Source: Candidatus Pacearchaeota archaeon (lineage in GTDB: Archaea; Nanobdellota; Nanobdellia; Pacearchaeales; GW2011-AR1). From it: a stretch of 64,000 nt of DNA. Positions 6,524-55,835 of the stretch are shown here, piece by piece (position 1 is the first letter of the stretch; the number at the start of each line of letters is the position of its first letter). The stretch lies in contig JACPHA010000019.1 of the NCBI GenBank assembly GCA_016188825.1, forward strand, positions 3,414-67,413. Direction: 5' to 3'. Below the pieces are notes generated by a model. The model worked only from the letters and a program-made list of their open reading frames with translations, searched no databases and had not been told where the DNA came from. A program made the translations under genes and the position numbers.

Positions 6524-6676
6524 ATGAAGAAAAGAATTTCGGCAACAGTAGATGAAGAAACGGATAAGGTGCTTGATTCTTTGTTAAAAGACGGTGATTA
6601 TAGGAATAAATCTCATATTATCGAAAAAGCAATTAAATTTCTTTGGGAGTTGAAAAATGCAAAACATAGGAAATAA
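6524..6676 (+). CDS. ribbon-helix-helix (CopG-like) regulator, 50 aa, not in the ORF track
   Basis: MKKRISATVDEETDKVLDSLLKDGDYRNKSHIIEKAIKFLWELKNAKHRK; overlaps the next gene start. Confidence 0.8.
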   Translation: MKKRISATVDEETDKVLDSLLKDGDYRNKSHIIEKAIKFLWELKNAKHRK

Positions 6677-7454
6677 AGCCCAACTGGGAATATGGATAAT
6701 AATTGCTGTTGTCTTAGTAGCGGTAATTATTTTATTCTACTTGATAAATGAAAGAAATCTCCCTGAAATAATTAAACCCGGAGAAAGTGAAAGCGTTTTT
6801 GATGCTGAAAGTTTTTTAAGCTCATGCATTAAGGAAAGTGTAGATGAAGTAACAGAAATTATGATTCCACAAGGAGGATTTAGAGAGCCAAGAAATTATT
6901 TCTTGTTTAATAATACAAAAGTAGAATATTTGTGCGAGAATATTGGCTTGTATAGTCCTTGTATAAACCAGCATCCATTGCTAATTGATGAAATTGAAGG
7001 TGAAATAAAAAAATACATTGAGCCAAAATTAATTGAATGTTTGGATGAAATGAAAAGAGAATTTGAGAGCAGAAGAAGTAGGGTTGTATTTAATGACGAT
7101 GCTTCTCCTGAAATTAATATTAATCTTGCAGAAGACAAAATAATTATTAATGTTAAAAAGAAAATCAGCGTAACGAAACAAGGAGAGACAAGAAGCTTTG
7201 AGAACTTGAATGTTGAAATTAAAAGTCCTATCTATAATCTTGCTAATATTGCCCGGGAGATAGCTTCGCAAGAAGCGCAGTATTGCTATTTTGAATATGT
7301 TGGATACAGTTTGTCTTATCCGAGGTATGAAATAAGAAAGTTTGGGACTTCAGAGCCAACTAAAATTTACACAATTAAAGATTTGAAATCTGGAAAAGAA
7401 ATGAACATTGCGATAAGGAGCTGTGCGATACCTGCGGGATTGTCTGGAAGATAA
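6657..7454 (+). CDS. class III signal peptide (pilin-like) protein, paralog A
   Basis: NKA/QLGIWIIIAVVLV prepilin-type leader; Cys pattern shared with 13368..14138. Confidence 0.8.
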   Translation: MQNIGNKAQLGIWIIIAVVLVAVIILFYLINERNLPEIIKPGESESVFDAESFLSSCIKESVDEVTEIMIPQGGFREPRNYFLFNNTKVEYLCENIGLYSPCINQHPLLIDEIEGEIKKYIEPKLIECLDEMKREFESRRSRVVFNDDASPEININLAEDKIIINVKKKISVTKQGETRSFENLNVEIKSPIYNLANIAREIASQEAQYCYFEYVGYSLSYPRYEIRKFGTSEPTKIYTIKDLKSGKEMNIAIRSCAIPAGLSGR

Positions 7455-7455
7455 A

Positions 7456-10400
7456 ATGGAGAAGGAAAAAGGAAAAAACAAATTCAAGGCTTTGTTTCAG
7501 ATAATTTTGTTAGTTGGAGCAATTTTTTCAGGAGCTTATTTTATCAGTGAAACTAATGAGATTTTTGATTTATATGATAGTGAAAAAACTTATGATAAAA
7601 ATAAATCAGGATTTTTTGTCTTAATTTATGAAAGGTTTGTTAATTTAATTTTTAATGAAGAAAATTTTGTTTCTGCTGTTGAGCTTTCAGAGCGAGCAAT
7701 TGAGAATTTCAGGCAGCACAGTTCTGGAGCAAGCAATGAAAATATAAATCAAATGGCCAATGAATTTATTAATCGGGGCTATGTTACCGAATCAGAGTTG
7801 GAAAACGAAGAGGCTGTAAGAAGGGCTTTTGAAAGAGCGGGAAATGATGCTCAAGAATCTGTTGATAGCGGAAATCAAGCAAGCTTGGGGAATTTATTTG
7901 ATTTATTAATGTTGCTTTTTGGCGAGCAAATCCCTCCGATACCAAACATAAACGGAAATGACATAATTAAAGATAAAAAAGTTTTTGCCTGCACAAAGTC
8001 AAAAGACAATAAAATATGCCAGACTTATAGCGAGGAAGAGTGTGAGGAGAAGTGTGCTGAGACTTGTATTGAAATAGACGTAGAAAACGAAAATGAGAGA
8101 AATGACTTGGTTGGAGAGTGTGAGTTAGGAACTTGTATTGATGAAGAAGAAGGCGTATGCCAGCCAAATTCTCCCAAAGCATTATGCAGACAAGAAGAAG
8201 GAGTTTGGAGCGACCAATCAATTGAAAATTTGAATGAGTGCAGAAGAGGATGCTGTGTTTTGGGCAGTGAGGCTCAGTTTATTACAGAAGCACAATGTGA
8301 AAATAGAGCTGATGAAGTAGGAGCAGAGTTTGGAGTTGGAGTAAGGTTTGATCCTGAAATTATAACAGAACCCGAATGTCAGGCTAGAGGTTACAAGATA
8401 ACAACAGAAGAAAAGGGAGCCTGTGTGATTCCAATTTTGGGAAATGAAAAAAAAGACTGTAAGTTTATCATAGGAGAAGAATGTGAAGCATTGAAGCAGG
8501 AATTTGTTGGAACACAATTTTATATAAGAGAATTGTGCTCGAATTCTGCAAGAAACACAATTTGCACAAAACAAAACACAACAAACTGCGTTGAAGGATT
8601 GGATGAAATATATTGGTTTGACAGTTGTGGAAACAGGGAAAATATTTATGAAGGAAGCTCAAGCATAGAAAAAGAAAGAAGCTGGAATAATGGTTTTATA
8701 GAAAATAAAAGTGAAAGCTGTGAGATTGGAACAATAGATGAGCCATTGAGAAATCAGGGGACTTGTGGGAATTGCAACAGGGTTTTTGGAAGCGCATGCG
8801 GAGAAAAAACAACAGAGGAAAAATTAAATGATAACAAACAGGGAGTTGTTTGCTTGGATTTGAGTTGTATTGATGAAGAAACTGGAAAAAAATATGAGCA
8901 TGGAGAAAGCTGGTGCGCATATCAAAGCTCAATTGGAAAACCAGGACAGGATACTTATGGCACCGACGCTGTATCGCAATTTTTGCCTTCAAATCAGATA
9001 ACTGAATTTATGTCCGGCTCAAGAGCGACTGACACACCTGGAAGCAGGCATTTTAGAAAAACATGCCTGAATAGAAAGATAACAACCGAACCGTGCGGGG
9101 ACAACTACAGGAATGAAATTTGCGTGCAAAACACCACGGAAATTGAAGGGAGTGATAAGGATTTTTCGCAGGCGGCTTGCAGAAAAAACCGCTGGGCTGA
9201 ATGCTTGGCTTACAATCCAAGTTATAAAGAAAGCAGAATCATAGGATTGGCAGGGCCTGATTTCGCTCCCATGTTATTAAAAGCAAGACTTGCTTTGACT
9301 TGCGGGCAAGATCCTGATTGTTTTGTTAAAACTATTGATGTTGCGGACAAATTTAAGTTTTCATATTGTGTGCCTAGATATCCTCCAGGATTTGATTTGG
9401 GGAAATCAGAGGAAAGTGAGGCTATATGCGCCCAGGCAACGCAGAAATGCAAGGCTGTTCATGTTGAAGGCAAGGGATGGGAAGTAAACAAAGATTGTGT
9501 TGAAGGAAGCCCGAGCAGTCCGAAACCTTCAAGAAAGTTTATTCAAGAAATGAATGAATTTTGCGTAAGCTTGGGAGATTGCGGATATCAGGTAAATTAT
9601 GCAGGAAAAGCGCCTGCGCAGGGCTCTGGATTTTGCGCATATGCAAAAGAAGAAGGTGATGACAATGCCATGAGTAATTTTGGAGGACAGGGCTTGCCAG
9701 AATGCTCAGGAGTTCAGAGTGGAGGAGGCGGACTTAACTTTGAAGGATTTAGTGGTCTGCCTAGTTTAACAAATGCCTTAAATCCATATCCTGAAGATGC
9801 TAAGCCAACTCCTGGAGAATATATAAGAGCAGAGTTGTTAATTGACTTTCTGAAAAAAAGAGCCGGAGAAGACGGAAATTGGTTTGACAATTGGCTTTCT
9901 GAAATTGCGCAAGGTTTTGGAATTAATATAGATTCCTTAAGGGGAAAACTTGCAGAAGCAGACCAAGATCCTGATGTATATGATCCTCCTGGTGTTGATT
10001 ATAATTTAGCCTTGATTCCGGGCGCTGTTGGGGCTGGAGCATGGGGAGCCGCTTATGGGTCTGTCGTTGTTTTCGGAGCTCTGGGCAATTCTTTTGCCGC
10101 TCCGGCAGCGGGTTTCGGCTCTGCATTTTTAGGAGCCGCGATTGGAGCTGCGACTGTTGGATTTTTAATTGATGTTTTGGGAATTGCGCCCGGATTATCT
10201 CCTGCTGTAACTTATAGTTTAATGGGGGCAGGAGCAGTAAGCGGGGCAATTATGGCTCATGGTATTATTGAATCGGGCGCCTTGTCTGGTGCACTCACTA
10301 ATCCAATAGGATGGATATTAGCGGTTGTAGTAATTGCGATAATCATAATCCTAAAGGCTCTTGGTATTGGAGAAGTAACTGAAGTAGAAGTTGTTTTTGT

Positions 10401-11964
10401 ATGCAAACCATGGGAGAGACCGAGAAATGTTTACAAAGAAACTTGTCAGAAATGTGGAGAAGATGAATTAAGCGACGGAAGTAAAACGTTTCCGTGCAAT
10501 AAATATGCATGCGAGGCTTTGGGAGAAAGTTGCGTTTATCTTAAAGAAACTGAAGGTCCCAATGGGGGGCTGTGTGAATATGCGCCGAAAGATGATACAG
10601 AAGCACCTAGAATAATTGAATTGCTGGAAGAAAATGTTTTGTCAGAAGGTTTTGAGTATGACGAAATTGACTTGGAAAGTGCAAACCAAAAATTTGAAAT
10701 AAAAAAAGTTGAGGGAGATAGCGAATGTGTTGACCAGTTTGAATCTGTGGTTTTCGGATTTAAACTTGACGAATATGGAAAATGTGGAATAACTGCCAAA
10801 GATGGAGAAATAACTTTTGAAGGTCTTGTGCCGATAGGATTTATTGGGGCTAGGGAGCACACATACAGGTTTAACAATGTTTTAGATTGGGAGATTTTAG
10901 GAATTGGAAATTTAGAGCCAGAAGAAGAACATACAATTAATTTAAAGATTGTCTGCCAAGATTTAAATGGTGTTAATAATTTAGCAAATCCATACAAAGC
11001 AAATATTTGTGTTGTTCCGCGAGATTTGACTGCTGCAAGGATAACAGATATTTCTAATTTGCAAGACATAGCGCTGCCTTACGGAGCAACAGAAAGAGAA
11101 ATAACTATTCAGACAAACGAAAGGGCTGAATGCAGATGGGAGAGCGAGGACAAATCATTCGGCGATATGCAGAATAATATGCAGTGCGCAAGTGAGAGGG
11201 GAGGAAATGGTTTGTTTACATGCACTGCAACAATTCCAGTTGATAAGCCTGAAGAAAATATTTGTATAAAATGTTTGGACCATCCTGAATGGGAAGGAAC
11301 TGCAAGAGAAAATGAAAGAAACGAAAACCAAGAATGTCTAGGTGGAACGATAAAAAGAAGCGCAAGTGAATTGCAGATTGATTATGTAAATCCAAATAAT
11401 GAAACAATAAGAAGGGGGACTCCAAGTGTCACATTGACTTTAGAGGCAGGTACTTCTGGGGGATTTGATGGAAGCGCAGAATGCAGATTCTCAATAAATG
11501 GGACAAGAGAAAGCTTGTTTGCTGATACGGGAGGGAAAACGCATATAAGCGAACTATCCGGATTATCTCCTGGAGATTATAATGTTTTAGTTAAATGCAA
11601 GGATATTGCAGGCAACACTGCAAACAAAACAACAACATTCGAAGTGCAAGTAGATACGCAATGGCCAAGTGTGACGAGAGTTTATAATGACGATGGAAAC
11701 CTTGTTGTTGTGACAGACGAGCCAAGTGAATGCTTTTTTATTAATTCTGCTTTACAAGGAAGAAGAAATGCATGTAATTTCATGTCTAGTGAGGAAGATA
11801 ATTTTAATGAGATACATAGGATTAGCATCGGGTCTGGTTCTGGAGGAGTTTCGCACAGCACAAATTTTGATGAAGGAAAAACATATTATATAAAATGTAA
11901 AGATGATTTTGATAATGAAAAAGTTGGAAGCTGTAATATAATTGTAAGAAAGGGAGAGGTTTGA
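7456..11964 (+). CDS. giant Cys-rich secreted/membrane protein with central Gly/Ala hydrophobic region and C-terminal beta-rich repeats
   Basis: About 1500 aa with an N-terminal hydrophobic signal and dense Cys modules. N-half matches 14527..16338; C-half matches 18503..20626. Confidence 0.85.
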   Translation: MEKEKGKNKFKALFQIILLVGAIFSGAYFISETNEIFDLYDSEKTYDKNKSGFFVLIYERFVNLIFNEENFVSAVELSERAIENFRQHSSGASNENINQMANEFINRGYVTESELENEEAVRRAFERAGNDAQESVDSGNQASLGNLFDLLMLLFGEQIPPIPNINGNDIIKDKKVFACTKSKDNKICQTYSEEECEEKCAETCIEIDVENENERNDLVGECELGTCIDEEEGVCQPNSPKALCRQEEGVWSDQSIENLNECRRGCCVLGSEAQFITEAQCENRADEVGAEFGVGVRFDPEIITEPECQARGYKITTEEKGACVIPILGNEKKDCKFIIGEECEALKQEFVGTQFYIRELCSNSARNTICTKQNTTNCVEGLDEIYWFDSCGNRENIYEGSSSIEKERSWNNGFIENKSESCEIGTIDEPLRNQGTCGNCNRVFGSACGEKTTEEKLNDNKQGVVCLDLSCIDEETGKKYEHGESWCAYQSSIGKPGQDTYGTDAVSQFLPSNQITEFMSGSRATDTPGSRHFRKTCLNRKITTEPCGDNYRNEICVQNTTEIEGSDKDFSQAACRKNRWAECLAYNPSYKESRIIGLAGPDFAPMLLKARLALTCGQDPDCFVKTIDVADKFKFSYCVPRYPPGFDLGKSEESEAICAQATQKCKAVHVEGKGWEVNKDCVEGSPSSPKPSRKFIQEMNEFCVSLGDCGYQVNYAGKAPAQGSGFCAYAKEEGDDNAMSNFGGQGLPECSGVQSGGGGLNFEGFSGLPSLTNALNPYPEDAKPTPGEYIRAELLIDFLKKRAGEDGNWFDNWLSEIAQGFGINIDSLRGKLAEADQDPDVYDPPGVDYNLALIPGAVGAGAWGAAYGSVVVFGALGNSFAAPAAGFGSAFLGAAIGAATVGFLIDVLGIAPGLSPAVTYSLMGAGAVSGAIMAHGIIESGALSGALTNPIGWILAVVVIAIIIILKALGIGEVTEVEVVFVCKPWERPRNVYKETCQKCGEDELSDGSKTFPCNKYACEALGESCVYLKETEGPNGGLCEYAPKDDTEAPRIIELLEENVLSEGFEYDEIDLESANQKFEIKKVEGDSECVDQFESVVFGFKLDEYGKCGITAKDGEITFEGLVPIGFIGAREHTYRFNNVLDWEILGIGNLEPEEEHTINLKIVCQDLNGVNNLANPYKANICVVPRDLTAARITDISNLQDIALPYGATEREITIQTNERAECRWESEDKSFGDMQNNMQCASERGGNGLFTCTATIPVDKPEENICIKCLDHPEWEGTARENERNENQECLGGTIKRSASELQIDYVNPNNETIRRGTPSVTLTLEAGTSGGFDGSAECRFSINGTRESLFADTGGKTHISELSGLSPGDYNVLVKCKDIAGNTANKTTTFEVQVDTQWPSVTRVYNDDGNLVVVTDEPSECFFINSALQGRRNACNFMSSEEDNFNEIHRISIGSGSGGVSHSTNFDEGKTYYIKCKDDFDNEKVGSCNIIVRKGEV

Positions 11965-12001
11965 TATAAAACTTTAAATATGTATTAACACATAAGTAAT
12001 T

Positions 12002-12365
12002 ATGATAAACATGACTTTGGCTATTCCGGAAGAATTATTCAGAAGAATGAAAGGATTTAGCGAGATAAGAAGTAGAAGATTTGGAAATTATGAATAAAAT
12101 ATAGAGAGTTTTGACAAACCCTAAAAATCTTCAAAACTCTCTAAGAAGGACTTTGAAAAAATCAGAAAAATAGAGGTTATTCAAAGTCCTCTATAGTGAA
12201 AGACGCAAGTTTTTTACCAATTTTGTGCGTCTTTCCCTTGATAGTCAATGACGAAACGGGAAATTATTAATGTCTTTGACTATAGCATCGAAAAGCAAAT
12301 TGAGTGAGAGAGGTGTTGAAGAGATAAGTAAAAGAATAAAAAGCGGCGCGGCTAAGAAGTTTTAA
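12002..12365 (+). pseudogene. small RHH-like antitoxin/regulator pseudogene interrupted by a hairpin cassette
   Basis: MINMTLAIPEELFRRMK, a frameshift, VEDLEIMNKI, a 183 bp insert, then ASKSKLSERGVEEISKRIKSGAAKKF-stop. Confidence 0.65.
12102..12284. repeat. four-unit long-loop hairpin cassette
   Basis: Stems of 13, 11, 10 and 12 bp (last with one mismatch) around 16, 22, 18 and 19 nt loops. Confidence 0.85.
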
Positions 12366-13015
12366 TGGAAGATTCAAGTTACTGGGAGATTGAGCCGAAC
12401 GAAATAGTTATAAGGACATGCGAGCATATCAAGTCTGGAAATGCTCTTGATTTGGGTTGTGGGGAAGGCAGAGATGCGGCTTTTTTAACAAAAAAAGGAT
12501 TTGATGTTTTAGCTGTTGATTCTTCGGCAAGGGGAATACATAAAGCAGAGCAACTGGCAAAAATTCATAAATTAAAAATCAAAACAAGAATTGAGGATAT
12601 TATCGACCTCTCTCTAAACAAGAACTTTGACTTGATATTGTGCAATAATGTTTTGCATTTTCTTGATTTTAAGAATGTGAAAAAAGTAATTGAGAAAATG
12701 AAAAAACATACTAAAATTGGAGGATTAAATGTTATAAGTGCTTTTATAGAAAATTCTGGAAGATATATGACAATTTGTCCAGAATTTTCTAATAAGACAA
12801 TTTCTATTTTTAGTCACGCAGGTCACGAAATTGTCTATAATGAGATGAATGATAAAAAAGGATTTGCTTTTTTATTTAAAGAAAATCAGCTTAAAGAATT
12901 TTATAGGGAATGGGACATAATTCATTATAAAGAGCTTACAACAGGAATTGAGCAGCATGATTTTACAAAACTACGCAGGCATGGAATTTCGGAGATTATT
13001 GCGAGGATTAAGTAA
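12365..13015 (+). CDS. class I SAM methyltransferase, TehB-like, with an in-frame hairpin insert
   Basis: ALDLGCGEGRD motif I, FDLILC..VLHF, GGLNVI. Confidence 0.88.
   Translation: MEDSSYWEIEPNEIVIRTCEHIKSGNALDLGCGEGRDAAFLTKKGFDVLAVDSSARGIHKAEQLAKIHKLKIKTRIEDIIDLSLNKNFDLILCNNVLHFLDFKNVKKVIEKMKKHTKIGGLNVISAFIENSGRYMTICPEFSNKTISIFSHAGHEIVYNEMNDKKGFAFLFKENQLKEFYREWDIIHYKELTTGIEQHDFTKLRRHGISEIIARIK
12747..12836. repeat. two-unit long-loop hairpin cassette inside a CDS
   Basis: TAGAAAATTCTGGA-17nt-TCCAGAATTTTCTA and AGACAATTTC-22nt-GAAATTGTCT. Confidence 0.85.
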
Positions 13016-13028
13016 TTATTTTAAGTGT

Positions 13029-13241
13029 TTAATGCATTAACGGACCATATTTTTTATATTTATAGATGATAAAATAGTGAAAAATATGTCAAGAAATTAA
13101 AATGCGAACTTTAATAAAATCAATATAAAGATAGTTATCTTACATCGGGGATTTATCGACGTTATTTACTAATTATTGAAATGGGTTGAATAGTTTTATA
13201 ATCTCTTTAAAGAGGCAGTTTAGTCCGGAATTGACCTAATC
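13029..13241 (+). repeat. dispersed non-coding repeat, copy 1
   Basis: Aligns by eye with 28928..29082 (TTTTTATATTTATAGA, AATTAAAATGCGAACT, AAGAGGCAGTTTAGT) and has two extra blocks. Confidence 0.85.
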
Positions 13242-13367
13242 GCCTTATTTTATTAGTAAAATTGTGCTTAATGTTAATTATAAAAAGAAGATTTTAGCAA
13301 AAGGATGAAAAGCTGTGAATAAAAGTTAAAGCAAAACAATTATAAATAAAATATTATTAAAAAAGAT

Positions 13368-14138
13368 ATGGGGAGCGATAAAAGAGGCCAGGTTGCTATT
13401 TTTGTTATAATCGCAATTGTAATTGTTGTTGCCGGGATTTTGATTTATTATTTGTTTCCTGATGTTAGGAGCGTGATTTCTGGAGAGATTGATCCAACAA
13501 TATTTATTCAATCATGCGTAGGGGAGGAGTTTAAAAGCCAGATAAAAACACTGGCAGAGCAAGGGGGATATGCAAATCCTGAAGGATATATTTTGTATGA
13601 AGACAAGAAGGCAAAATATTTGTGCTATACTTCCGAATATTATCTGCCTTGCAGAGTTCAACAACCTTTGATAAATGAAAATTTTGAAAATGAGCTGAAT
13701 AATGCTATAAAGAATAAGATTGATTCGTGCTTTAACGAAATGCGCGGAGAGTTTGAGGACAGAGGATATGAAGTTTCTGGAGATATTTCTGGAAGTGATG
13801 TAAAAATTGTGCCAAATAAAATTCAATTGGCAATGAACGGAAAGTTCGGTGCAACAAAGGGAGAGGAAACAAAAACATTTAATGAAGTTAATTATGAAAT
13901 TCCGAGCAAGATGTATAATTTAGTAATGATTGCAACAAGCATTGTTGATTTTGAATCTTCTCTTGGAAATACAGAAACATCTTTATATGTTGGAAATTAT
14001 CCTGACATAATTATTCAGAAAACTAAATTGACTGATGGCTCGACGGTTTATACGGTAAAAGATGCTACGACAAATGAAGAATTTACTTTTGCATCAAGAA
14101 GTTTAGCCTGGCCAGGAGGTTATGGGATAGAAGCTTAA
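13368..14138 (+). CDS. class III signal peptide (pilin-like) protein, paralog B
   Basis: KRG/QVAIFVIIAIVIVV leader; YLC...PC..QQPL and RS.A.P.G shared with paralog A. Confidence 0.82.
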   Translation: MGSDKRGQVAIFVIIAIVIVVAGILIYYLFPDVRSVISGEIDPTIFIQSCVGEEFKSQIKTLAEQGGYANPEGYILYEDKKAKYLCYTSEYYLPCRVQQPLINENFENELNNAIKNKIDSCFNEMRGEFEDRGYEVSGDISGSDVKIVPNKIQLAMNGKFGATKGEETKTFNEVNYEIPSKMYNLVMIATSIVDFESSLGNTETSLYVGNYPDIIIQKTKLTDGSTVYTVKDATTNEEFTFASRSLAWPGGYGIEA

Positions 14139-14139
14139 G

Positions 14140-14448
14140 ATGAAGATCGAAAAAGAGAAAGTTAATAAAGAGATAGAAGAATTAAAACCAAAAATAATCG
14201 GAATACTAAAAAATAACCGAATAAGGAAAGCGAGAATTTTTGGCAGCTATGCTCGTGGTGAGCAGAAAAAAAATAGCGACATTGATATTTTGGTTGAGTT
14301 TGATAAAGAGATTAGTTTATTTGATTTTGTTGGAGTTAAACTGGAAATTGAAGAGGCTATAGGAAAAACTGTTGATTTGGTAGAATATAAGGCAGTAAAA
14401 CTGCGTATAAAAAGAAATATTCTTATGGATGAGGTGAAAATAATATGA
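14140..14448 (+). CDS. minimal nucleotidyltransferase (MNT) antitoxin
   Basis: IFGSYARGEQ...SDIDILVEF...VDLV. Confidence 0.9.
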   Translation: MKIEKEKVNKEIEELKPKIIGILKNNRIRKARIFGSYARGEQKKNSDIDILVEFDKEISLFDFVGVKLEIEEAIGKTVDLVEYKAVKLRIKRNILMDEVKII

Positions 14449-14525
14449 AACGAGATATTATGTTATTTTTAGGAGATATTTTAGAGAATATAATTCTTAT
14501 TGAAAAGTCTACTGAAAAGATTTAA
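14445..14525 (+). pseudogene. truncated HEPN (DUF86-like) toxin
   Basis: MKRDIMLFLGDILENIILIEKSTEKI-stop, with an ATGA overlap with MNT; resembles DUF86 N-termini. Confidence 0.65.
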
Positions 14526-14526
14526 A

Positions 14527-16338
14527 ATGAAAATAAAAAAAAATAAAAACGAGAAAAGTAGAAAAAATAATTTGATTTATGCATTTGGAATAACAATTTT
14601 ATTAATTTTTTTTGCGAATGTTGTTTTTGTAAATGCTGAGGGGGAAAGAGTCGGAACACTTGACAGGACAGTTTGCTGCGAAAAAACGAAATCGGGGCTG
14701 TTTTGCCAGGATGTTAAAGAAGAACAGTGCGCGACAGCAGATAATCCTCCGACTTCGTGTGTTTCTGTGTCATCCTGCAAACCAGGATTTTGCTTTGATT
14801 CTTTCGAGGGAACTTGCTTGGATAACACACCACAAATGGTTTGCAATGAAAATAAAGGGACGTGGTTTGCTGAAAAACCTGCGCAATGCGAATTAGGATG
14901 CTGTGTTTTAGGAGACCAGGGTTCTTTTGTAACATTGACAAGATGCAAAAAAATGTCCGGGGATTTTGGATTAGAGACTAATTTTAATCCTGACATTAAG
15001 GATGAAACAGAGTGTATTTTAACTGCTGGAAGCAGAGAGAGAGGGGCCTGTGTTTTTAATGAAGATTTTGAAAAAACTTGCAAACTGACAACGAGACAGG
15101 AATGCGCTCCGGAAAATATTTTAGGCGGGAGTGGAAAATTTGGAATAGTAAATGAAACACAAAATAGAAACCTGGAGGGATTAACTCCAGCAGGAAGCGG
15201 AAATGAAGGAACCGGAAGCATAACAGGACAGGCAATTAGTGATTTGGCAACGAATGAAGTCAAGTTTTATTCTGGAAAGTTATGCACTGCGGAAGAATTG
15301 GGGACAAATTGCGCTATGACAAAAGAAACAATTTGTATTCCTGGAAAAGAAGAGGTTTATTTTGTTGATACTTGCGGAAATCCTGGAAATGTTTATGATG
15401 CTTCAAAGATAAATGACAAAGAATATTGGGCAAATATAAAAGACAAGAGTGAGATATGCGGGCCTGATTCTGGAAATGAGAATTCGCAGACATGTGGAAA
15501 TTGCAATTATTTGTTTGGAACATTCTGTCGTGCTTCTAACTCTAAAACTGCAAGACCAACTTACGGAACAAATATCTGCGCGAGCTTGAATTGCGTCGAT
15601 GATGAAGGAAATGAAAAATTGCATGGAGAGTCGTGGTGCTTGTATGATGGAGGCAGTGGAGTTGCAACAGCTGCGACTGGGGCAAAAGTTGGAAGCAAGT
15701 TTTACAGGCAAATTTGCAACAATGGAGAGATTTTAACAGAGCCTTGCGCTGATTTCAGGCAGGAAGAGTGCATTGAGAACAACATTGACACACCACAAGG
15801 CAGATTTTCTGAAGCGGCGTGCAGAGTGAATCGCTGGCAGGATTGCACGGCACAAAGAAGCCAGAGAGATTGTGAAAATTCTGACAAGAGAGATTGTAAA
15901 TGGTTTAATGGAATTGGATATGTTTTAATGGGCTCTATATTGAACGGCAGTTCTTTGGATGACAACTCTCTTGCATCGGCAAGGCAAAGGGCTTCTGGAG
16001 CAATACAAGCGCAAGGTGGCTTGGAAAATATTCCTAGGGGTGCGTGTGTTCCTAAAGTAACTCCTGGATTAAATTTCTGGACAGGAGATGAAGCGCGCGG
16101 CATTTGCGCGCAGGCAAATGCAATATGTCCTGTGACTTATGAAAAAAAAGCAGTTGGTGGTGGAGACTGGAAATGCGTAAAAAACTGTGAATGTGATCCG
16201 AATGAGCATCCAGAAGTTTTGGCGCAGAGATTGCAGTTGTGCATGTCTCTCGGAGACTGCGGGCCAAAAGTAAACTGGGTTGGAGACAAAGGATATAATA
16301 TTGGCTATGACGTTACGAAGAGAAAGGTTGGGGATTGA
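14527..16338 (+). CDS. Cys-rich secreted protein, homolog of the N-half of 7456..11964
   Basis: Signal peptide; shared GCCVLG, CGNCN, HGESWC.Y, AACR.NRW and C.SLGDCG motifs. Confidence 0.88.
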   Translation: MKIKKNKNEKSRKNNLIYAFGITILLIFFANVVFVNAEGERVGTLDRTVCCEKTKSGLFCQDVKEEQCATADNPPTSCVSVSSCKPGFCFDSFEGTCLDNTPQMVCNENKGTWFAEKPAQCELGCCVLGDQGSFVTLTRCKKMSGDFGLETNFNPDIKDETECILTAGSRERGACVFNEDFEKTCKLTTRQECAPENILGGSGKFGIVNETQNRNLEGLTPAGSGNEGTGSITGQAISDLATNEVKFYSGKLCTAEELGTNCAMTKETICIPGKEEVYFVDTCGNPGNVYDASKINDKEYWANIKDKSEICGPDSGNENSQTCGNCNYLFGTFCRASNSKTARPTYGTNICASLNCVDDEGNEKLHGESWCLYDGGSGVATAATGAKVGSKFYRQICNNGEILTEPCADFRQEECIENNIDTPQGRFSEAACRVNRWQDCTAQRSQRDCENSDKRDCKWFNGIGYVLMGSILNGSSLDDNSLASARQRASGAIQAQGGLENIPRGACVPKVTPGLNFWTGDEARGICAQANAICPVTYEKKAVGGGDWKCVKNCECDPNEHPEVLAQRLQLCMSLGDCGPKVNWVGDKGYNIGYDVTKRKVGD

Positions 16339-16353
16339 TTTTTTATTATAAAT

Positions 16354-17070
16354 TTATTCTCTGTAGGTAACTTCTAATCTGGGGCCAATAAAACCGTTTT
16401 CTTTTGAATAAAATACTGCATAATCAAAATCGACATTACTAAAACTTGTTGTTTTTATTGCTAGTCCGTTGTTTGGTATTGTATAATTATACCATTTTCT
16501 AACTGCGCCTGTTACATCAAATCTATGGGTGGCTGCCACATCAAATTTTATAGTTTGGGCGTCTAGGTTTATTATTTGAGTTGGCATGTTATCATAACTA
16601 ATACTATTTTCTCCCCAAGATGAAAAACGAATATAGCCAACTTCTGTTGTGCCTAGAGGTTTAATATAACTAGCATTACTTCCTGGCACTAACGATAATT
16701 CTGCGTGGATAATTTCTCTCGCGGTAATTCTTGAAACATCAAATTTTATGAAAGCGATATAATCTGTATAGCCAGAAGAGCCTAGATTTGAATTTCCTGT
16801 GTATAAAATCCATTCGTCGCCGAAGTTTTGAGAGGGTTGACTTGATGAAACATAACTGTCCTCTGATGCGCCAATATCGGCTGTTTTTATTTCATTTTCG
16901 TTGTCTCCCTCATTATTTTGCGGTGGACTAACATTTACCGGAGGTTCATAATCGGAAATATTTTCCGGGAGAGTTTGAGGACAGCCAAAAAGTGAAAGGG
17001 TTGTTGCAAGCAGGGCACTACTCAATGATTTTTTAATTCTATTAGAAGATAAGATTTTGTCTAAACTCAT
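16354..17070 (-). CDS. putative lipoprotein with a DNRLRE/CBM96-like domain
   Basis: LSLFGC lipobox; DSYV...NFG, FIKFD, W.E..I.Y...P, FDVT..V..W, N.GL and P.LEVTY pattern. Confidence 0.75.
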   Translation of the reverse strand: MSLDKILSSNRIKKSLSSALLATTLSLFGCPQTLPENISDYEPPVNVSPPQNNEGDNENEIKTADIGASEDSYVSSSQPSQNFGDEWILYTGNSNLGSSGYTDYIAFIKFDVSRITAREIIHAELSLVPGSNASYIKPLGTTEVGYIRFSSWGENSISYDNMPTQIINLDAQTIKFDVAATHRFDVTGAVRKWYNYTIPNNGLAIKTTSFSNVDFDYAVFYSKENGFIGPRLEVTYRE

Positions 17071-17205
17071 TTTTACTTTTTGATAAAGTTATTCAGAAAG
17101 TATATAAAGATTTATGTTAAAAATTATAGAGATTAAACTTGGAAAAGTATAAAACGCAGAGTTATTTATTCTTTTCTTAAAGATTGAAAAATCTTATGTT
17201 TAAAA

Positions 17206-17427
17206 ATGAGAAATGTAAAATCTAAAAAACTTTTGAGGGCATTAATAAAACTTGGTTTTGAAGTTAAAGCACAAAGTGGCACTCATGTTATCCTGCGTGG
17301 ATTTAGAGATGGAGTAAAAAGAACTTTCCCTGTTCCTATTCATCATCAAATTATTCCGATTGGGACTTTTAAAAGCATTCTTAAACAAGCGGGCGTAACA
17401 GAGGAAGAACTGAAAGAATTTTTATAA
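17206..17427 (+). CDS. hicA: HicA family mRNA interferase toxin
   Basis: L.KLGF...Q.GTH...VP.H...IP.GT..SILKQAG. Confidence 0.88.
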   Translation: MRNVKSKKLLRALIKLGFEVKAQSGTHVILRGFRDGVKRTFPVPIHHQIIPIGTFKSILKQAGVTEEELKEFL

Positions 17428-17661
17428 ATAAAGTCTAGTAAGTAAGACTGGTTCTTCTTTTTTTAGCAAGTCTGCTTTTTCTGGTTCTACAGAAATTAAT
17501 AATCTCAATGCTTCTTTTAAATTATTAAGAGCGTCTTCTGGACTATCACCAAAATCACTTACAGAAAGCTCTTCGCATTCTGCTACATAAACTGGCTTTC
17601 CTTCCAAATCCTCTTTATGAATTACTACATTACATGACAATTCTTTGCTTAATTTTTTCAT
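17422..17661 (-). CDS. hicB: short HicB family antitoxin
   Basis: YVAEC.EL...FGDS.EDAL.N.KEAL; no C-terminal DNA-binding domain. Confidence 0.85.
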   Translation of the reverse strand: MKKLSKELSCNVVIHKEDLEGKPVYVAECEELSVSDFGDSPEDALNNLKEALRLLISVEPEKADLLKKEEPVLLTRLYL

Positions 17662-17772
17662 AATAATTTAATAACTGATTTGCTTATAAGATTATCGGTT
17701 TTGTTTTCTTATTTTTATCCTAACTTTATAGTAATAGCAAAGTTTAAAAAGTATCAATGGTGTTGATTTTTC

Positions 17773-18462
17773 ATGAATTTAACAAGAAAATTAGGAAGAG
17801 AAATTGTTAGCGCAGGAGTTGGGTTAGCAGGAGTGTTGAGTTTTGGGGGATGTCAAACTCCTGAAGATACTGCAACTGTTGCGACGATTGCAGGAGTTTT
17901 AGTGCCGGGAGTTGAGGATCCGGGAAGGGCTGCTGCATTGGCTGCTGCAGCGCAAGGAATGCATGGAATTGCACAAGTTCAAGCGCAAGAACAAAATAAA
18001 ACAAATGTGAATGTTTATGTGAATGGAAATAATGCTCAATATCAACAACCTCAAAGACAAATTACAATAGAGGAATGGAATAGAATGTCTGGAGAAGAGA
18101 AAATAAAACATGTTTATGATAATAAAGCTGAAATGTTTTTTGCTTGTACTCGAGTAGAAGATTATAATAGAAATGGATTAATAGAACCAAATGAATATAT
18201 TGGAATAGAAAAATGGTGTTTTTCAGCCAATGAGAATATTGTCATTGGAGCAATAACCTTTGAAAAACCAGGAACAGAAATATTAATTAGATTGCTTCCT
18301 CCAAGCAGACCAGCAATAGATTATAAAAGAATAGTAGATAGAGATGGTTATGTTTTTTGGGAATTAATTCCTAGAGAAAAAAAAGAAATAGGAAGAAATG
18401 CGTTATTAAGGTATGCTAATGGGCGATTCATGGGTAAAATAGAATTTGATATAACGCCTTAG
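17773..18462 (+). CDS. putative lipoprotein with Ala/Gly-rich helices
   Basis: LSFGGC lipobox; DYNRNGLIEPNE EF-hand-like motif. Confidence 0.7.
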   Translation: MNLTRKLGREIVSAGVGLAGVLSFGGCQTPEDTATVATIAGVLVPGVEDPGRAAALAAAAQGMHGIAQVQAQEQNKTNVNVYVNGNNAQYQQPQRQITIEEWNRMSGEEKIKHVYDNKAEMFFACTRVEDYNRNGLIEPNEYIGIEKWCFSANENIVIGAITFEKPGTEILIRLLPPSRPAIDYKRIVDRDGYVFWELIPREKKEIGRNALLRYANGRFMGKIEFDITP

Positions 18463-18502
18463 CTCTCAAAATATTTATAAGCAATAATTCTTTAAGTTAA
18501 AC

Positions 18503-20626
18503 ATGAAAAAGAGAGAAAGAAAATTATTTATTTATAATGTTGCTTTTTTTCAAATATTATTACTTGTTGGAATGAGTTTTTCTGTTGCTTTTGTGATGAG
18601 CGATTATGTTGGATTTGCGAATGGAGCTGAGGGGACAAGTTTAAGTTTAAGACCGCAAGCAAATGATTATGCATTGGGGCAAGTAAATCAGCCTACTAAT
18701 ACGCCAATCCCGACAGGCAGTGGATCCGGCGCCGCCAAAACTGCGGCTGCTCAAGCTGGCGCTGCTACTACGCCGGCCGCAGGAGGTTTTTTTAGTAATT
18801 TATTTTTTGGAAAAGCCTTTAGCGGCGGGGCCGTCGGAGCACTAACATCCGGATTAATCTGGGGAGGGGTTGTATATGGGGGAATAAAAATTATTGGAAA
18901 ATTATTTGGACTTGACGAGGGTTTGGTCGATTCATTGTCTACAGCGGCAGGAGTTGGAACTGGTGTTGGAACATCACTTTACTTTTTAGGGCAGAATTAT
19001 CCTAGCACTGCTTGGGCTTCATTTACTCCCGGAATTTCTGCTTTAGTCGGCATCGGAGTAGGAGTAGGAATATTTTTAGCTACTTATAAAAAAGAAAAAA
19101 GAGAAATAGTAAAATTTGAATGCTTGCCTTGGGAGCCTCCTGTTGGCGGATCTGATTGCGAGAAATGCAATAACAATCCTGATATGCCTTGCTCTGAATA
19201 CAGATGTAAAAGCCTTGGACAGGCTTGCGATATTGTGAATAAAGGAACAACAGAGGAGAAATGTGTTTGGATTAATAAAGGAGACACGCAAGCACCGAAG
19301 ATTGAGCCGTGGGAAGAGGCTTTGAAGCCAACTGGATTAAGATATGCTCCAGATACAGGCATAAGTCCACCAAATCGCGGATTTAGAATTTTAAGCCAGC
19401 AGGGTTGTTTGGATGCATTTACGAAATTGGAATTTGGAGTTACAACTGATGAACCTGCGCAATGCAGGATTGATTATGAAGCAAGAAGCAAGTATGATGA
19501 GATGAGCTATTTGTTCGGAGAAACAAACTTGTTCTTGGAAGAGCATACGCAAAGATTGAAAGTTCCTAATCCATTTGAGCAGGGAATTGGAGCAGGGGAT
19601 GTGCCAGATATTTATAATGATGGGAGTTATAAGTTGTATGTGAGATGCATGGATGCAAACGGAAATGGGCAGGATTCTGCTGTCGTTGCTTTCAGCTTCT
19701 GTGTTAACCCTGGGCCTGACGCAAAGCAGCCAATAATTGAAGGGACTTCGATAGAATCTGGGAAACCTGTGAGTTTTGATATTGACAAAGTTCCTATTGA
19801 GGTTTATGTTAACGAGCCTGCCGAATGCAAGTGGAGCAGACAGGACAAGGCGTATGATGTGATGGAAAATACAATGAACTGTGCAACTGGAACATTACAG
19901 TTTAATGCTGACTTGAATTATGTCTGCTCTGGAGAATTAACTGGAATAAAAAACAGAGAAAATAATAATTTCTATTTCAGATGCAAGGACCAGCCAGGAA
20001 AGCCCGAAAGCCAGAGAAATGTTATGACTACAAGCTTTCCATTGACATTGAGAGGGACGCAGGAATTGATAATAACAAAAGTTGGACCGAATGCAACAAT
20101 TCAGGGAAGCACAAGTGTTGTAACTGTTAATTTAACGGCTGAAACTGCATTCGGGGCTGAAGACGGAAAGGCAACATGTTATATTGACGACGAGATTAAT
20201 GGAGATTTCAGGCTTGCAATGCAGGGTGAAAAAACCAATAGGCATGATCAACCGCTTGATTTGGTTGCTGGAACATACACCTTTTACTTTAAGTGTGTTG
20301 ATGCGGGGGCAAATTTGGCAGAGGACAGCACGACGTTTACAGTTGTTAGTGATTTCCAAGCACCAAAAATAGTCAGAGTGTTCAGAGACGGACAAACATT
20401 AAAGATAATAACAGACGAGAAAGCAAGATGCTCATACTCGACAACAAGCTGCACTTATAATTTTGAGGATGGGACTGCGATGACTTATGAAAATGTCGCA
20501 GATAAGAACGTGCATTATGCTGACTGGAGCAGAGATGTTACTTATTATATAAAATGCGAGGATTTGCAGGGCAATAAACCGGGGCCAAGCCAGTGCCAGA
20601 TTGTTGCAAGAGGGTCGGAGTTTTAG
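18503..20626 (+). CDS. secreted/membrane protein, homolog of the C-half of 7456..11964
   Basis: FQILLLVG signal like that of the giant protein; Gly/Ala hydrophobic block; shared F.C.PWE.P, NE.AEC.W and YYIKC.D motifs. Confidence 0.88.
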   Translation: MKKRERKLFIYNVAFFQILLLVGMSFSVAFVMSDYVGFANGAEGTSLSLRPQANDYALGQVNQPTNTPIPTGSGSGAAKTAAAQAGAATTPAAGGFFSNLFFGKAFSGGAVGALTSGLIWGGVVYGGIKIIGKLFGLDEGLVDSLSTAAGVGTGVGTSLYFLGQNYPSTAWASFTPGISALVGIGVGVGIFLATYKKEKREIVKFECLPWEPPVGGSDCEKCNNNPDMPCSEYRCKSLGQACDIVNKGTTEEKCVWINKGDTQAPKIEPWEEALKPTGLRYAPDTGISPPNRGFRILSQQGCLDAFTKLEFGVTTDEPAQCRIDYEARSKYDEMSYLFGETNLFLEEHTQRLKVPNPFEQGIGAGDVPDIYNDGSYKLYVRCMDANGNGQDSAVVAFSFCVNPGPDAKQPIIEGTSIESGKPVSFDIDKVPIEVYVNEPAECKWSRQDKAYDVMENTMNCATGTLQFNADLNYVCSGELTGIKNRENNNFYFRCKDQPGKPESQRNVMTTSFPLTLRGTQELIITKVGPNATIQGSTSVVTVNLTAETAFGAEDGKATCYIDDEINGDFRLAMQGEKTNRHDQPLDLVAGTYTFYFKCVDAGANLAEDSTTFTVVSDFQAPKIVRVFRDGQTLKIITDEKARCSYSTTSCTYNFEDGTAMTYENVADKNVHYADWSRDVTYYIKCEDLQGNKPGPSQCQIVARGSEF

Positions 20627-20678: not shown

Positions 20679-21038
20679 ATGAAAGAATATAATTCTTGGT
20701 TGAAACAAGCTGAAAAGGATCTTGATACTGCGAAGTATAACATAGATGGAAGAAAGCTTGAAGCTGGGGCTTTTTTTCTTCAACAGGCTGTAGAAAAGGC
20801 TTTGAAAGCTTTATATATCAAAAAATTTGCTAGATTAATTAAAACTCATGACCTTGTTTTGTTAGCGAGAGAATTAAAAGTTCCTCAGAATTTAGAAGAG
20901 TTTTGCAAAAAATTAACTCCGGCTTATCAATATACCAGATATCCTGATATTACTAAGGAAATAGACTTAGAAAATAAAATAAATGAATTTATGGAGTATT
21001 CTAAGGAGATTATAAAATGGGTAAAAAAGAATTTGTAA
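20679..21038 (+). CDS. HEPN domain protein
   Basis: W...A..DL..A, QQAVEKALKA, KTHDL and Y.YTRYPD motifs. Confidence 0.9.
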   Translation: MKEYNSWLKQAEKDLDTAKYNIDGRKLEAGAFFLQQAVEKALKALYIKKFARLIKTHDLVLLARELKVPQNLEEFCKKLTPAYQYTRYPDITKEIDLENKINEFMEYSKEIIKWVKKNL

Positions 21039-39272: not shown

Positions 39273-39273
39273 A

Positions 39274-39753: not shown

Positions 39754-39801
39754 CCGCCTCCCACGTCGCCCGCTTTCTCGATAATAGAATCTAATAGTAA
39801 T

Positions 39802-54807: not shown

Positions 54808-54856
54808 TTAACAACAAAGCAGAGAGGATTAATAAAGATTTAGATTTTTATAAATT

Positions 54857-54910
54857 ACAGAGAACCGAATAAAAAATTTCACACAATCAACTCAGTTCTC
54901 TGTCTGGATA
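54857..54910. repeat. long-loop hairpin unit homologous to 62400..62453
   Basis: ACAGAGAACCGA-23nt-TCAGTTCTCTGT followed by CTGGATA. Confidence 0.7.
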
Positions 54911-55834: not shown

Positions 55835-55835
55835 C

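What the first reader, a model, noticed from the sequence alone, without database searches (positions are those of the whole stretch)
6524..20626. Duplicated pilin-like plus giant Cys-rich protein locus: candidate host-contact apparatus
Seen: two paralogous modules, each a class III signal-peptide gene followed by a very Cys-rich secreted protein with a long hydrophobic core and C-terminal beta-rich repeats. Established: DPANN cells depend on hosts and form attachment structures whose proteins are largely unknown; class III substrates assemble on type IV filaments. Inference: a pilus-displayed, disulfide-stabilised adhesion, pore or fusion device, with diverged copies possibly addressing different hosts.
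Basis: partly seen in the sequence, partly recalled or inferred. Interest (0 to 1): 0.8.

Follow-up and report, generated by a model that had tools for sequence, protein, structure and literature searches.

The report
Pilin-like adaptor plus giant surface protein
Two old gene copies in a tiny symbiotic (DPANN) archaeon each pair a pilin-like protein with a huge cysteine-rich surface protein of no known family, and they probably form a cell-surface complex that is a good candidate for how these cells hold on to other cells.

Summary
Module 1 is an RHH gene, a pilin-like gene and a 1502-aa giant. In module 2 the giant is split into a secreted Cys-rich N-half (612 aa) and a membrane-anchored C-half (707 aa), with unrelated genes, mostly toxin-antitoxin, in between.

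The pairing of pilin-like gene and giant is conserved: 20 of 21 and 111 of 140 giant/N-half ORFs in relatives have the pilin-like gene directly upstream, and most of the other 29 were cut by the locus edge.

The N-half model matches no solved or viral fold. The C-half is a glycine-zipper hydrophobic region, a Cys knot and four Ig/Fn3-like domains.

A complex model supports binding of the pilin-like head to the N-half (ipSAE 0.78, best control 0.00). In 6 of 6 fetched long ORFs from other lineages, the head, N-half and C-half are one protein whose only hydrophobic segment is the class-III-type N-terminus.

The pilin-like family is near-universal in the phylum sample (369 of 401 genomes). Elsewhere it precedes other large secreted proteins.

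Best reading: a class-III-signal adaptor that docks giant adhesin-like proteins on the cell surface. Pilus display is plausible but unshown. A pore or fusion role has no support.

The scan noted this family before in two other genomes.

The parts
6524..6676 (+). 50-aa ribbon-helix-helix (CopG-type) ORF. It overlaps the start of the pilin-like gene and is a probable regulator of module 1.
   Evidence: Pfam RHH_1, 26.9 bits against a cut-off of 20.5. A homolog sits directly upstream of the pilin-like gene in 3 of 15 relatives' loci (L023, L024, L027). It was found in only 1 ORF of the further 80 loci by phmmer.
6657..7454 (+). Pilin-like adaptor A (P0001, 265 aa): class-III-type N-terminus (NKA|QLGIWIII...) plus a globular head.
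   Evidence: 33% identical to P0003, E 5e-35. Member of alignment A3, in which K5, G7 and Q8 are nearly invariant. No Pfam or NCBIfam family.
7456..11964 (+). Giant protein, fused form (P0002; ORF from GTG 7423, probable ATG start 7456, 1502 aa).
   Evidence: the database copy is 1502 aa. It starts 1 nt after the stop of P0001. Relatives are 39-44% identical at full length.
7978..9657 (+). Cys-rich ectodomain of the giant (residues 186-745 of the ORF), homologous to P0004.
   Evidence: About 50 invariant Cys in 13 full-length relatives. No PDB sequence relative.
10000..10392 (+). Gly/Ala-rich hydrophobic (glycine-zipper) region of the giant (residues 860-990).
   Evidence: Hydropathy segments 869-994, with a maximum KD(19) of 2.96 at residue 965. 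90 of 100 full-length representatives have such a mid-chain segment. GxxxGxxxG occurs in 87 of 100.
10393..11961 (+). Cys knot plus Ig/Fn3-like beta-sandwich repeats of the giant (residues 991-1513).
   Evidence: Homologous to P0005 residues 197-707. Weak Pfam Big_13 hit, 26.2 bits, just under the cut-off of 27.
13368..14138 (+). Pilin-like adaptor B (P0003, 256 aa): KRG|QVAIFVII... plus a globular head.
   Evidence: (339 relatives, all unnamed or 'hypothetical'). Predicted to bind P0004.
14500..16338 (+). N-half gene (P0004, 612 aa; alternative ATG at 14527): signal peptide (...VFVNA|EG) plus the Cys-rich ectodomain, with no other hydrophobic segment.
   Evidence: AF2 model has pLDDT 82.5 and pTM 0.64. 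No fold match.
18503..20626 (+). C-half gene (P0005, 707 aa): N-terminal TM helix, disordered linker, Gly-rich hydrophobic region (nt 18782-19090), Cys knot and four Ig/Fn3-like domains.

Best explanation
The locus encodes two ancient paralogous copies of a cell-surface complex specific to DPANN archaea (Pacearchaeota/Woesearchaeota type).

In each copy, a roughly 260-aa protein with a class III (prepilin-type) signal and a globular head acts as an adaptor. Its head clamps onto the first disulfide-rich modules of a giant extracellular protein. The giant consists of a Cys-rich ectodomain of unknown fold, followed in this lineage by a glycine-zipper membrane segment, then a Cys knot and four Ig/Fn3-like domains.

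The adaptor's pilin-type helix ties the complex either to the membrane or to a type IV filament. The glycine-zipper segment gives a second membrane anchor. The exposed domains most likely mediate adhesion or contact with another cell or surface.

Shown here:
- paralogy of the two modules;
- conservation of the gene pairing;
- fission and fusion of the parts across lineages;
- the fold classes of the parts.

Supported by models only: binding of the adaptor to the ectodomain.

Inferred: cleavage by the prepilin peptidase, the site of anchoring, and the adhesive or host-contact role.
For: Paralogy.

Gene pairing:
- The pilin-like gene lies directly upstream of 20 of 21 ORFs with an N-half match in 15 relatives' loci.
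- It lies directly upstream of 111 of 140 such ORFs in 80 further loci, with gaps of -103 to +357 bp.
- Of the other 29, 23 had under 100 bp of upstream sequence in the locus, 3 had the gene 500-800 bp upstream, and 2 had none found, one of them with only 751 bp of upstream sequence available.

Split form: the fused giant plus the split copy occur together in 18 of 20 genomes of the genus. Of 81 N-half-only ORFs, 51 have a separate C-half ORF downstream in the locus.

Predicted binding:
- P0004(50-612) with P0003(36-256): ipSAE median 0.78 (runs 0.76, 0.78, 0.80); best of 3 controls 0.00.
- The mark was reached by 58 of 80 solved complexes and by 2 of 110 mismatched pairs in the tool's calibration, which holds only roughly because my own alignments were used.
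- The runs agree in at least 57% of contacts, and the partner's pLDDT is at least 81.
- The interface uses the adaptor's most conserved motif, residues 84-105.

Rosetta-stone fusions:
- In 6 of 6 long ORFs fetched from other families (1123-1268 aa), the class-III-type N-terminus, pilin-like head, N-half piece (profile positions 88-121 and about 300-518) and C-half are one protein.
- These proteins have no internal hydrophobic segment: maximum KD(19) is 1.0-1.44 after residue 70.
- All parts are therefore on the same, extracellular side.

Class III signal:
- [KR]GQ is nearly invariant in 32 family members.
- The same motif starts pilin candidates in the genome's own type IV filament locus on C19.
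- A peptidase A24, two ATPase/TadC sets and a third ATPase match are present.

Surface and adhesin character:
- Ig/Fn3 arrays and conserved Cys throughout.
- The tail after the last hydrophobic segment is not positively charged (median KR 0).

Generality: the pilin-like profile hits 369 of 401 phylum genomes. It is followed by other large secreted proteins in 4 of 4 examined genomes that had no N-half match, and on own contig C14.
Against: - No type IV filament gene lies next to the modules. The nearest set is about 44 kb away, and only 1 weak ATPase hit was found in 95 relatives' loci.
- Curated pilin models in Pfam and NCBIfam do not match the adaptor.
- The giant's own membrane segments fit poorly with display on an extended pilus.
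- Binding rests on one prediction with unpaired alignments.
- There are no expression data. No RNA run was listed, which is uninformative either way.
- Adhesion is inferred only from domain types and analogy. The strongly conserved polar motifs of the N-half (DEVYWxDSCGNxENIY, GESWC, VGSRH) could instead mark an enzymatic or ligand-binding site.
- The host of these organisms is unknown.
Confidence: 0.55

Rival explanations
1. It is the S-layer or another structural envelope lattice of these archaea. The membrane-anchored Ig-like C-half would act as the stalk (like SlaB) and the Cys-rich N-half as the canopy (like SlaA).
For: - Ig-like arrays are typical of archaeal S-layer proteins, including DPANN candidates (passages read in bioRxiv 10.1101/2023.10.27.564410).
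- The family is near-core in the window's own family (26 of 27 genomes).
- The split N-half/C-half pair resembles a two-part layer.
- No other S-layer candidate was identified here.
Against: - Few N-glycosylation sequons: 0.3-0.5 per 100 aa, and 7 in 1513 aa. The putative DPANN S-layer-type proteins in that preprint have 13-49.
- Very high Cys content (4-7%), unusual for S-layer proteins (recalled knowledge).
- There are 1-7 matches per genome, with old paralogs kept side by side.
- The family was found in only 123 of 401 phylum genomes.
- A dedicated class-III-signal partner has no role in known S-layers.
Confidence: 0.18
2. It is a membrane-active device (fusogen, pore or translocon) that opens a cytoplasmic bridge to the host. 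The Gly/Ala-rich hydrophobic region would insert into the host membrane.
For: - The mid-chain segment is about 146 aa (median) with 35% Gly+Ala, and GxxxGxxxG occurs in 87 of 100 members.
- There is a weak, non-significant profile hit of this region to the type III translocator AopB (E 0.11).
- DPANN-host cytoplasmic contacts are known and their proteins are not (general knowledge).
Against: - The hydrophobic region is absent from the fused relatives (6 of 6) and from about 6-10 of 100 representatives, so it is not part of the conserved core.
- No heptad-repeat or helical-bundle machinery follows it, only Ig-like domains.
Confidence: 0.08
3. It is a bindosome-like uptake or capture structure. 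Class-III-signal proteins would assemble at the surface to bind and hand over a substrate (glycan, lipid or nutrient from a host), with the Cys-rich domain as the ligand-binding or enzymatic part.
For: - In Sulfolobales, class III signals occur on non-filament binding proteins (the bindosome; passages read in PMC13705601).
- The N-half has strongly conserved polar motifs: N294, W379, R420 and N444 are invariant in 150 sequences.
- CBM96-like proteins are encoded nearby.
Against: - No transporter gene is linked to the modules in the loci examined.
- No known binding-protein or enzyme fold or family was matched.
- The neighbouring CBM96 gene is a variable insert that is not conserved in relatives.
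Confidence: 0.1

Closest known systems
Type IV pilus minor-pilin/adhesin sets (bacterial FimU-PilVWX with PilY1; the ETEC tip minor pilin CofB binding secreted CofJ), named from memory
   Same: A class-III-signal protein is encoded directly before a large adhesin-like protein and is predicted to bind it. The secreted N-half docking on a pilin-like head is mechanistically like CofB-CofJ.
   Different: - No sequence or fold relation was found.
- The locus is detached from filament machinery.
- The giant has its own glycine-zipper membrane segment.
- In some lineages the adaptor and giant are fused into one 1100-1300-aa class-III-signal protein.
Large Ig-fold adhesin-like proteins in archaeal type 4 filament loci (e.g. 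arCOG05616, arCOG07037), as described in PMC13705601 (passages read)
   Same: Pilin-type genes are neighboured by large multi-Ig-fold surface proteins. Both resemble the Aureispira grappling-hook protein GhpA, which also appears among my Foldseek and VIA matches.
   Different: - Those proteins sit inside filament loci with the ATPase and platform protein; this module does not.
- The Cys-rich N-half and the mid-chain hydrophobic region are not described there.
- That paper reports type 4 filament systems as sparse in DPANN.
Sulfolobus bindosome (class-III-signal sugar-binding proteins)
   Same: Globular, non-filament proteins carry class III signals and are assembled at the cell surface.
   Different: There is no binding-protein fold, no linked ABC transporter and no BasEF-type genes next to the module.
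Archaeal S-layer pairs (SlaA/SlaB) and DPANN S-layer candidates (NEQ300, MJ1_0160)
   Same: Extracellular Ig-like arrays, a membrane-anchored part plus a non-anchored part, and lineage-restricted sequences.
   Different: This family is Cys-rich, has few sequons, is multi-copy, and comes with an obligatory pilin-like partner.
[quoted passage not shown] S-layer-like proteins' (Makarova et al. 2019, PMC6393860; table passage read)
   Same: The description fits the pilin-like adaptor family: DPANN-wide, secreted, and encoded next to large surface proteins.
   Different: Identity with that cluster could not be tested, because no sequence of it was available here. The paper's supplementary data were not seen.

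Membership tests
Archaeal class III signal peptide (prepilin-type) proteins | Short charged N-terminus, a [KR][GA] cleavage motif, then an uninterrupted hydrophobic helix of about 20 residues | tested here: met
   P0003 has KRG|QVAIFVIIAIVIVVAG and P0001 has NKA|QLGIWIIIAVVLVAV. K5, G7 and Q8 are nearly invariant in 32 members. Both proteins pass a FlaFind-style scan that I wrote.
Archaeal class III signal peptide (prepilin-type) proteins | A prepilin peptidase (A24) and type IV filament ATPase/platform genes in the genome | tested here: met
   PF01478 at C14:70388 (E 1.8e-14). PF00437 and PF00482 pairs at C8:67946-72720 and C19:58350-62227.
Archaeal class III signal peptide (prepilin-type) proteins | Match to curated pilin/archaellin N-terminal models | tested here: inconclusive
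   0 families for P0001 and P0003 in Pfam and NCBIfam at E up to 1. Such models are known to miss divergent pilins.
Archaeal class III signal peptide (prepilin-type) proteins | Cleavage by the peptidase and assembly into a filament | not testable with these tools
   This needs biochemistry or imaging.
Pilins of a type 4 filament locus | Encoded beside the ATPase and platform protein | tested here: not met
   The nearest set is about 44 kb downstream on the same contig. In 95 relatives' loci with flanks of up to about 5 kb there was 1 weak ATPase hit.
Archaeal S-layer proteins | Ig-like or beta-sandwich arrays exposed on the surface | tested here: met
Archaeal S-layer proteins | Dense N-glycosylation sequons and low Cys content | tested here: not met
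   0.28-0.46 sequons per 100 aa. Cys content is 3.0-7.0%, with a family median of 66 Cys, 5.1%.
Archaeal S-layer proteins | Very high expression and a 2D lattice | not testable with these tools
   No RNA run is listed for this DNA.
Fusexins / class II fusogens (HAP2, Fsx1) and pore-forming translocators | The characteristic ectodomain fold | tested here: inconclusive
PilY1-type tip adhesins | C-terminal beta-propeller domain | tested here: inconclusive
   No propeller in either model by DSSP or fold matches. No family hit.
Glycine-zipper membrane segments | GxxxGxxxG motifs in hydrophobic helices | tested here: met
   Present in 87 of 100 full-length representatives. Helices 111-134, 139-162 and 177-194 in the P0005 model have only moderate confidence. 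Oligomer or pore formation was not tested.
Ribbon-helix-helix (CopG) regulators, for the ORF at 6524-6676 | Pfam RHH_1 above the gathering score | tested here: met
   26.9 bits against a cut-off of 20.5, E 4.4e-6.

The most novel reading that the evidence does not exclude
The pilin-like head is a phylum-wide, interchangeable docking adaptor, a surface-display system of DPANN archaea. One class-III-signal family, present in about nine of ten genomes sampled and in several copies per genome, each copy paired or fused with a different giant secreted protein, would hang these proteins on the cell or on type IV filaments. The Cys-rich/glycine-zipper variant in this window would be the piece that makes and holds the contact with the host cell, possibly by bridging the two membranes.
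Probability: 0.3. Interest if true: 0.85.

Novelty: new variant of a known kind. Interest (0 to 1): 0.62.

Why it matters
How DPANN archaea attach to and exploit their hosts is an open question. For Pacearchaeota and Woesearchaeota, no surface protein has been characterised.

This locus gives a concrete candidate that is conserved and can be tested by expressing its parts:
- a defined adaptor-ectodomain pair with a predicted interface;
- independent support from natural gene fusions;
- a large disulfide-rich ectodomain that matched no solved or viral structure in these searches.

If the adaptor really is a general docking device for giant surface proteins, it would organise much of the unexplained 'dark matter' surface proteome of this phylum. 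It would also give handles, such as antibodies or tags, for finding hosts in enrichments.

Tried and rejected
- Pfam and NCBIfam on all five proteins, and Pfam on 13 full-length relatives, gave only sub-threshold Ig-like hits (Big_13 in 9 of 13).
- PDB profile searches found nothing for the N-half profile. For the full-length profile they found only AopB (E 0.11) and BAG domains (E 0.7-0.95), taken as compositional. For the adaptor profile the best hit was E 0.038, to a designed protein.
- ESM Atlas: both P0003 and P0004 have neighbours only among unnamed Nanobdellota clusters.
- Expression: no RNA holder was listed, only 4 DNA runs of one groundwater study.
- My script to count transmembrane helices in the hydrophobic region gave meaningless numbers, and I dropped that count. 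The parity of membrane passes is therefore inferred, not computed.
- The search for related loci with the adaptor alignment failed for lack of a conserved stretch, so I used the N-half alignment instead.
- The search of earlier findings by place returned nothing.
- Literature: searches found no paper describing this family.
- I rejected a mobile-element origin. The flanks (CobA upstream, Hjc and AspRS downstream) are syntenic in genus relatives.
- I rejected 'pseudogene split'. The split form is conserved, with intact ORFs, in 18 of 20 genomes of the genus.


Full report
**What is in the window**

The window comes from a 1.0-Mb draft genome of 20 contigs, 82.8% complete, with archaeal markers such as Hjc and Cbf5/TruB. 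Relatives of the locus are titled Candidatus Pacearchaeota, Woesearchaeota or Nanoarchaeota MAGs.

ORF listing and translation give this order on the + strand:
- a 50-aa ORF at 6524-6676 (Pfam RHH_1, 26.9 bits against a cut-off of 20.5);
- P0001 at 6657-7454 (265 aa);
- the giant P0002, ORF 7423-11964, with a probable ATG start at 7456 that matches the 1502-aa database copy;
- a TehB-like methyltransferase at 12365-13015;
- P0003 at 13368-14138 (256 aa);
- an MNT nucleotidyltransferase at 14140-14448;
- P0004 at 14500-16338 (612 aa);
- on the minus strand, a CBM96-like protein at 16354-17070 with a lipoprotein-like N-terminus;
- a HicA toxin at 17206-17427 and an opposing 79-aa ORF;
- a 229-aa protein at 17773-18462;
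- P0005 at 18503-20626 (707 aa);
- a HEPN/MNT pair at 20679-21334.

**Checking the observation**

P0001 and P0003 are paralogs (33% identical, E 5e-35). P0004 aligns to residues 161-728 of the giant (E 7e-60). P0005 aligns to residues 898-1512 (E 1e-47).

So there are two paralogous modules, but the second giant is split into an N-half gene and a C-half gene. Cys content is 4.4%, 7.0% and 3.0%.

P0004 has only an N-terminal signal-type segment, which reads ...VFVNA|EG. P0002 and P0005 carry the Gly/Ala-rich hydrophobic region.

**Conservation and synteny**

With P0005 as query, 36 of 41 related genomes have a match, counting the window's own. In the genus, 18 of 20 carry both a 570-920-aa C-half ORF (51-59% identical) and a 1365-1525-aa fused giant (about 30% identical), 5-10 kb apart. 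The two misses in the genus are 91% and 75% complete.

In 15 fetched loci, 20 of 21 ORFs with an N-half match have a pilin-like ORF directly upstream. The exception is the first of two tandem giants in L026. Three further ORFs with only partial N-half similarity have none.

In 80 named public loci, 111 of 140 N-half-bearing ORFs have the pilin-like ORF directly upstream (gap -103 to +357 bp). The other 29 break down as follows:
- 23 had under 100 bp of upstream sequence in the locus;
- 3 had the gene 500-800 bp upstream;
- 1 had only 751 bp available;
- 1 had none in 1139 bp;
- 1 further row, L051, is a 347-aa fragment at the locus edge and is counted among the 23.

These 80 loci were the best matches to a profile headed by P0004, so they are biased towards close relatives. 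81 ORFs were N-half-only and 59 were fused.

Of the 81 N-half-only ORFs, 51 have a separate C-half ORF downstream in the locus. Of the 30 without, 11 had under 3 kb of downstream sequence. In G022 the C-half lies 210 kb from the pilin-like/N-half pair.

The flanks (CobA upstream, Hjc and AspRS downstream) are syntenic in genus relatives. The TehB, MNT, CBM96, HicA and HEPN/MNT genes are not conserved in place, so they are inserts.

The RHH ORF recurs upstream of the pilin-like gene in 3 of 15 loci, but in only 1 ORF of the 80 loci at E 1e-3.

**Size and range of the families**

A profile of the N-half (A2, 22 sequences) finds 1797 representative clusters at E up to 1e-3, and 1081 at E up to 1e-30, among 1.84 billion representatives. 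Most of the top 143 are 1150-1500 aa; 37 are under 900 aa.

In a sample of 401 genomes of the phylum, all in the same class as the window's genome, the N-half profile hits 123. The window's own family has 26 of 27. Other families range from 0 of 29 to 14 of 15.

The adaptor profile (A3) hits 369 of 401, usually with several matches per genome. This includes families without an N-half match: f12 has 29 of 29 against 0 of 29, and f20 has 42 of 42 against 4 of 42.

Five of the 401 genomes (G283, G284, G360, G371, G433) are flagged as unpublished. They count among the 369 adaptor-positive genomes and among the N-half-negative ones. Without them the adaptor tally is 364 of 396. No other claim rests on them.

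**Structure**

An AF2 model of P0004 built with an 83-row alignment has pLDDT 82.5 and pTM 0.64. It is made of many short beta-hairpin modules. It has no convincing fold match:
- Foldseek against PDB: best E 0.095 (a vWC domain);
- BFVD: best E 0.52.

The model was not searched domain by domain, so a new fold is not claimed.

The model of P0005 has pLDDT 81.0. It shows:
- an N-terminal helix;
- a disordered linker at residues 39-110;
- three moderately confident helices in the Gly-rich region;
- a small Cys-rich knot;

The Aureispira grappling-hook protein is also among the matches.

No Pfam or NCBIfam family reaches its threshold for any of the five proteins.

**Do the adaptor and the giant bind?**

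Complex prediction on P0004(50-612) plus P0003(36-256) gave these results:
- ipSAE of 0.76, 0.78 and 0.80, median 0.78, with the best of 3 controls at 0.00;
- in the tool's calibration the mark was reached by 58 of 80 solved complexes and by 2 of 110 mismatched pairs, counts that hold only roughly because my own alignments were used;
- the runs agree in at least 57% of contacts, and the partner's pLDDT is at least 81.

The interface uses adaptor residues 84-105, the family's most conserved motif, YLCYTS..C.VQQP. On the other side it uses P0004 residues 63-72 and 95-120. This supports binding but does not show it.

Independent support comes from gene fusions. In 6 of 6 long ORFs fetched from other families (1123-1268 aa), a single protein contains:
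- the class-III-type N-terminus, such as KKRGQVSYFVLVG;
- the adaptor domain (iE 1e-32 to 1e-41);
- an N-half piece at profile positions 88-121, directly behind the adaptor domain;
- N-half positions of about 300-518 (iE 1e-25 to 1e-37);
- the C-half.

In a seventh locus, the adaptor and N-half are fused and the C-half is separate.

These fused proteins have no internal hydrophobic segment: maximum KD(19) is 1.0-1.44 after residue 70, against 2.96 in P0002. All parts therefore act together on one side of the membrane. The glycine-zipper region is a lineage-specific addition. It is present in 90 of the 100 closest full-length representatives.

**Class III signal and machinery**

[KR]GQ followed by a hydrophobic helix is nearly invariant in 32 adaptor sequences. 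The same motif begins pilin candidates beside the genome's type IV filament genes on C19.

The genome has one A24 peptidase, two ATPase/TadC sets and a third ATPase match. One set lies just past the right end of the window.

The modules are not adjacent to such genes, either here or in 95 relatives' loci, where there was 1 weak hit.

**A wider pattern**

On contig C14 of the same genome, a third adaptor-like gene (630 aa, KKGQ start) overlaps the start of a 2067-aa secreted protein unrelated to the giant.

In 4 of 4 examined genomes that had no N-half match, the adaptor gene is directly followed by a 676-911-aa secreted protein that matches neither half. In a fifth locus it precedes a 1147-aa giant of this family.

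The adaptor thus seems to be a general partner of large secreted proteins in this phylum. This fits the wording for the DPANN cluster cls.004306 in PMC6393860 (table passage read), but identity with that cluster could not be tested.

**Interpretation**

The best-supported reading is a surface complex in which a class-III-signal adaptor docks a giant adhesin-like protein.

The S-layer rival is weakened by the few sequons, the high Cys content, the multiple old paralogs and the patchy range. The pore/fusion rival has no structural support and depends on a region that is not conserved across the family.

Display on a pilus remains possible but unshown. The giant's own membrane segments argue for a cell-bound complex in this lineage. 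The secreted N-half of module 2 and the fully fused forms elsewhere could ride on a filament.

**Literature and earlier notes**

In the searches I found no paper describing this family. I read passages, not whole papers, of PMC6393860, PMC13705601, bioRxiv 10.1101/2023.10.27.564410 and PMC9938205. Supplements were closed.

The scan had noted the same family in two other genomes, with similar readings.

Noticed in passing
window 38130-40233 (+): A second cluster of class-III-type proteins. It holds a 380-aa protein starting MEKRGQFFLIAALV with a CBM96-like C-terminus (E 2e-5, just under the cut-off), then a 159-aa protein (NKKGVSLIVSYVLLV) and a 143-aa ORF with no family.
   Followed up: partly
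window 56480-64000 (-) and beyond (G000:C8:67946-74651): The right end of the window is the tail of a type IV filament locus. It holds a 904-aa PKD-domain protein, a 760-aa protein, a 214-aa protein and a 263-aa class-III-type protein (MLEKRGMSHVEV...). Just outside the window come two TadC-like genes, an ATPase and three pilin-like genes.
   Followed up: partly
window 4940-6279, 14140-14448, 17206-17661, 20679-21334: Toxin-antitoxin-type genes are scattered through and around the locus: DUF2204 nucleotidyltransferase plus an HTH protein, a lone MNT, HicA plus an opposing small ORF, and a HEPN/MNT pair. They are not conserved in place in relatives, except that the DUF2204/HTH pair recurs in L032.
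   Followed up: partly
G000:C14:10819-18911 (-), locus L122: A third adaptor-like gene (630 aa) overlaps the start of a 2067-aa secreted protein with 36 Cys and no Pfam family. Orthologs of the 620-650-aa adaptor-like protein appear in several genera of the family.
   Followed up: partly
window 54418-55870 (-) and composition around 52-56 kb: Origin-associated proteins OapC and OapB are encoded here (Pfam E 2e-21 and 8e-17). The cumulative GC skew peaks at about 52-54 kb and then falls, so a replication origin may lie nearby.
   Followed up: no
window 34764-35591 (+): A 275-aa ORF with weak HTH_32 and rve integrase-core matches. One domain is slightly above its cut-off and the others below, so this is a possible remnant of an insertion sequence.
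   Followed up: no
window 16354-17070 (-) and 17773-18462 (+): Two small proteins with lipoprotein-like N-termini sit between the N-half and C-half genes. One has a CBM96 domain (E 1.4e-17); the other has no family. Only weak relatives of the second occur in two relatives' loci.
   Followed up: partly
L036 (G010), 15036-19162 (-): In one genome of the same genus, copy 1 of the giant is also split, into 870-aa and 501-aa ORFs. Fission of the giant has therefore happened more than once.
   Followed up: no
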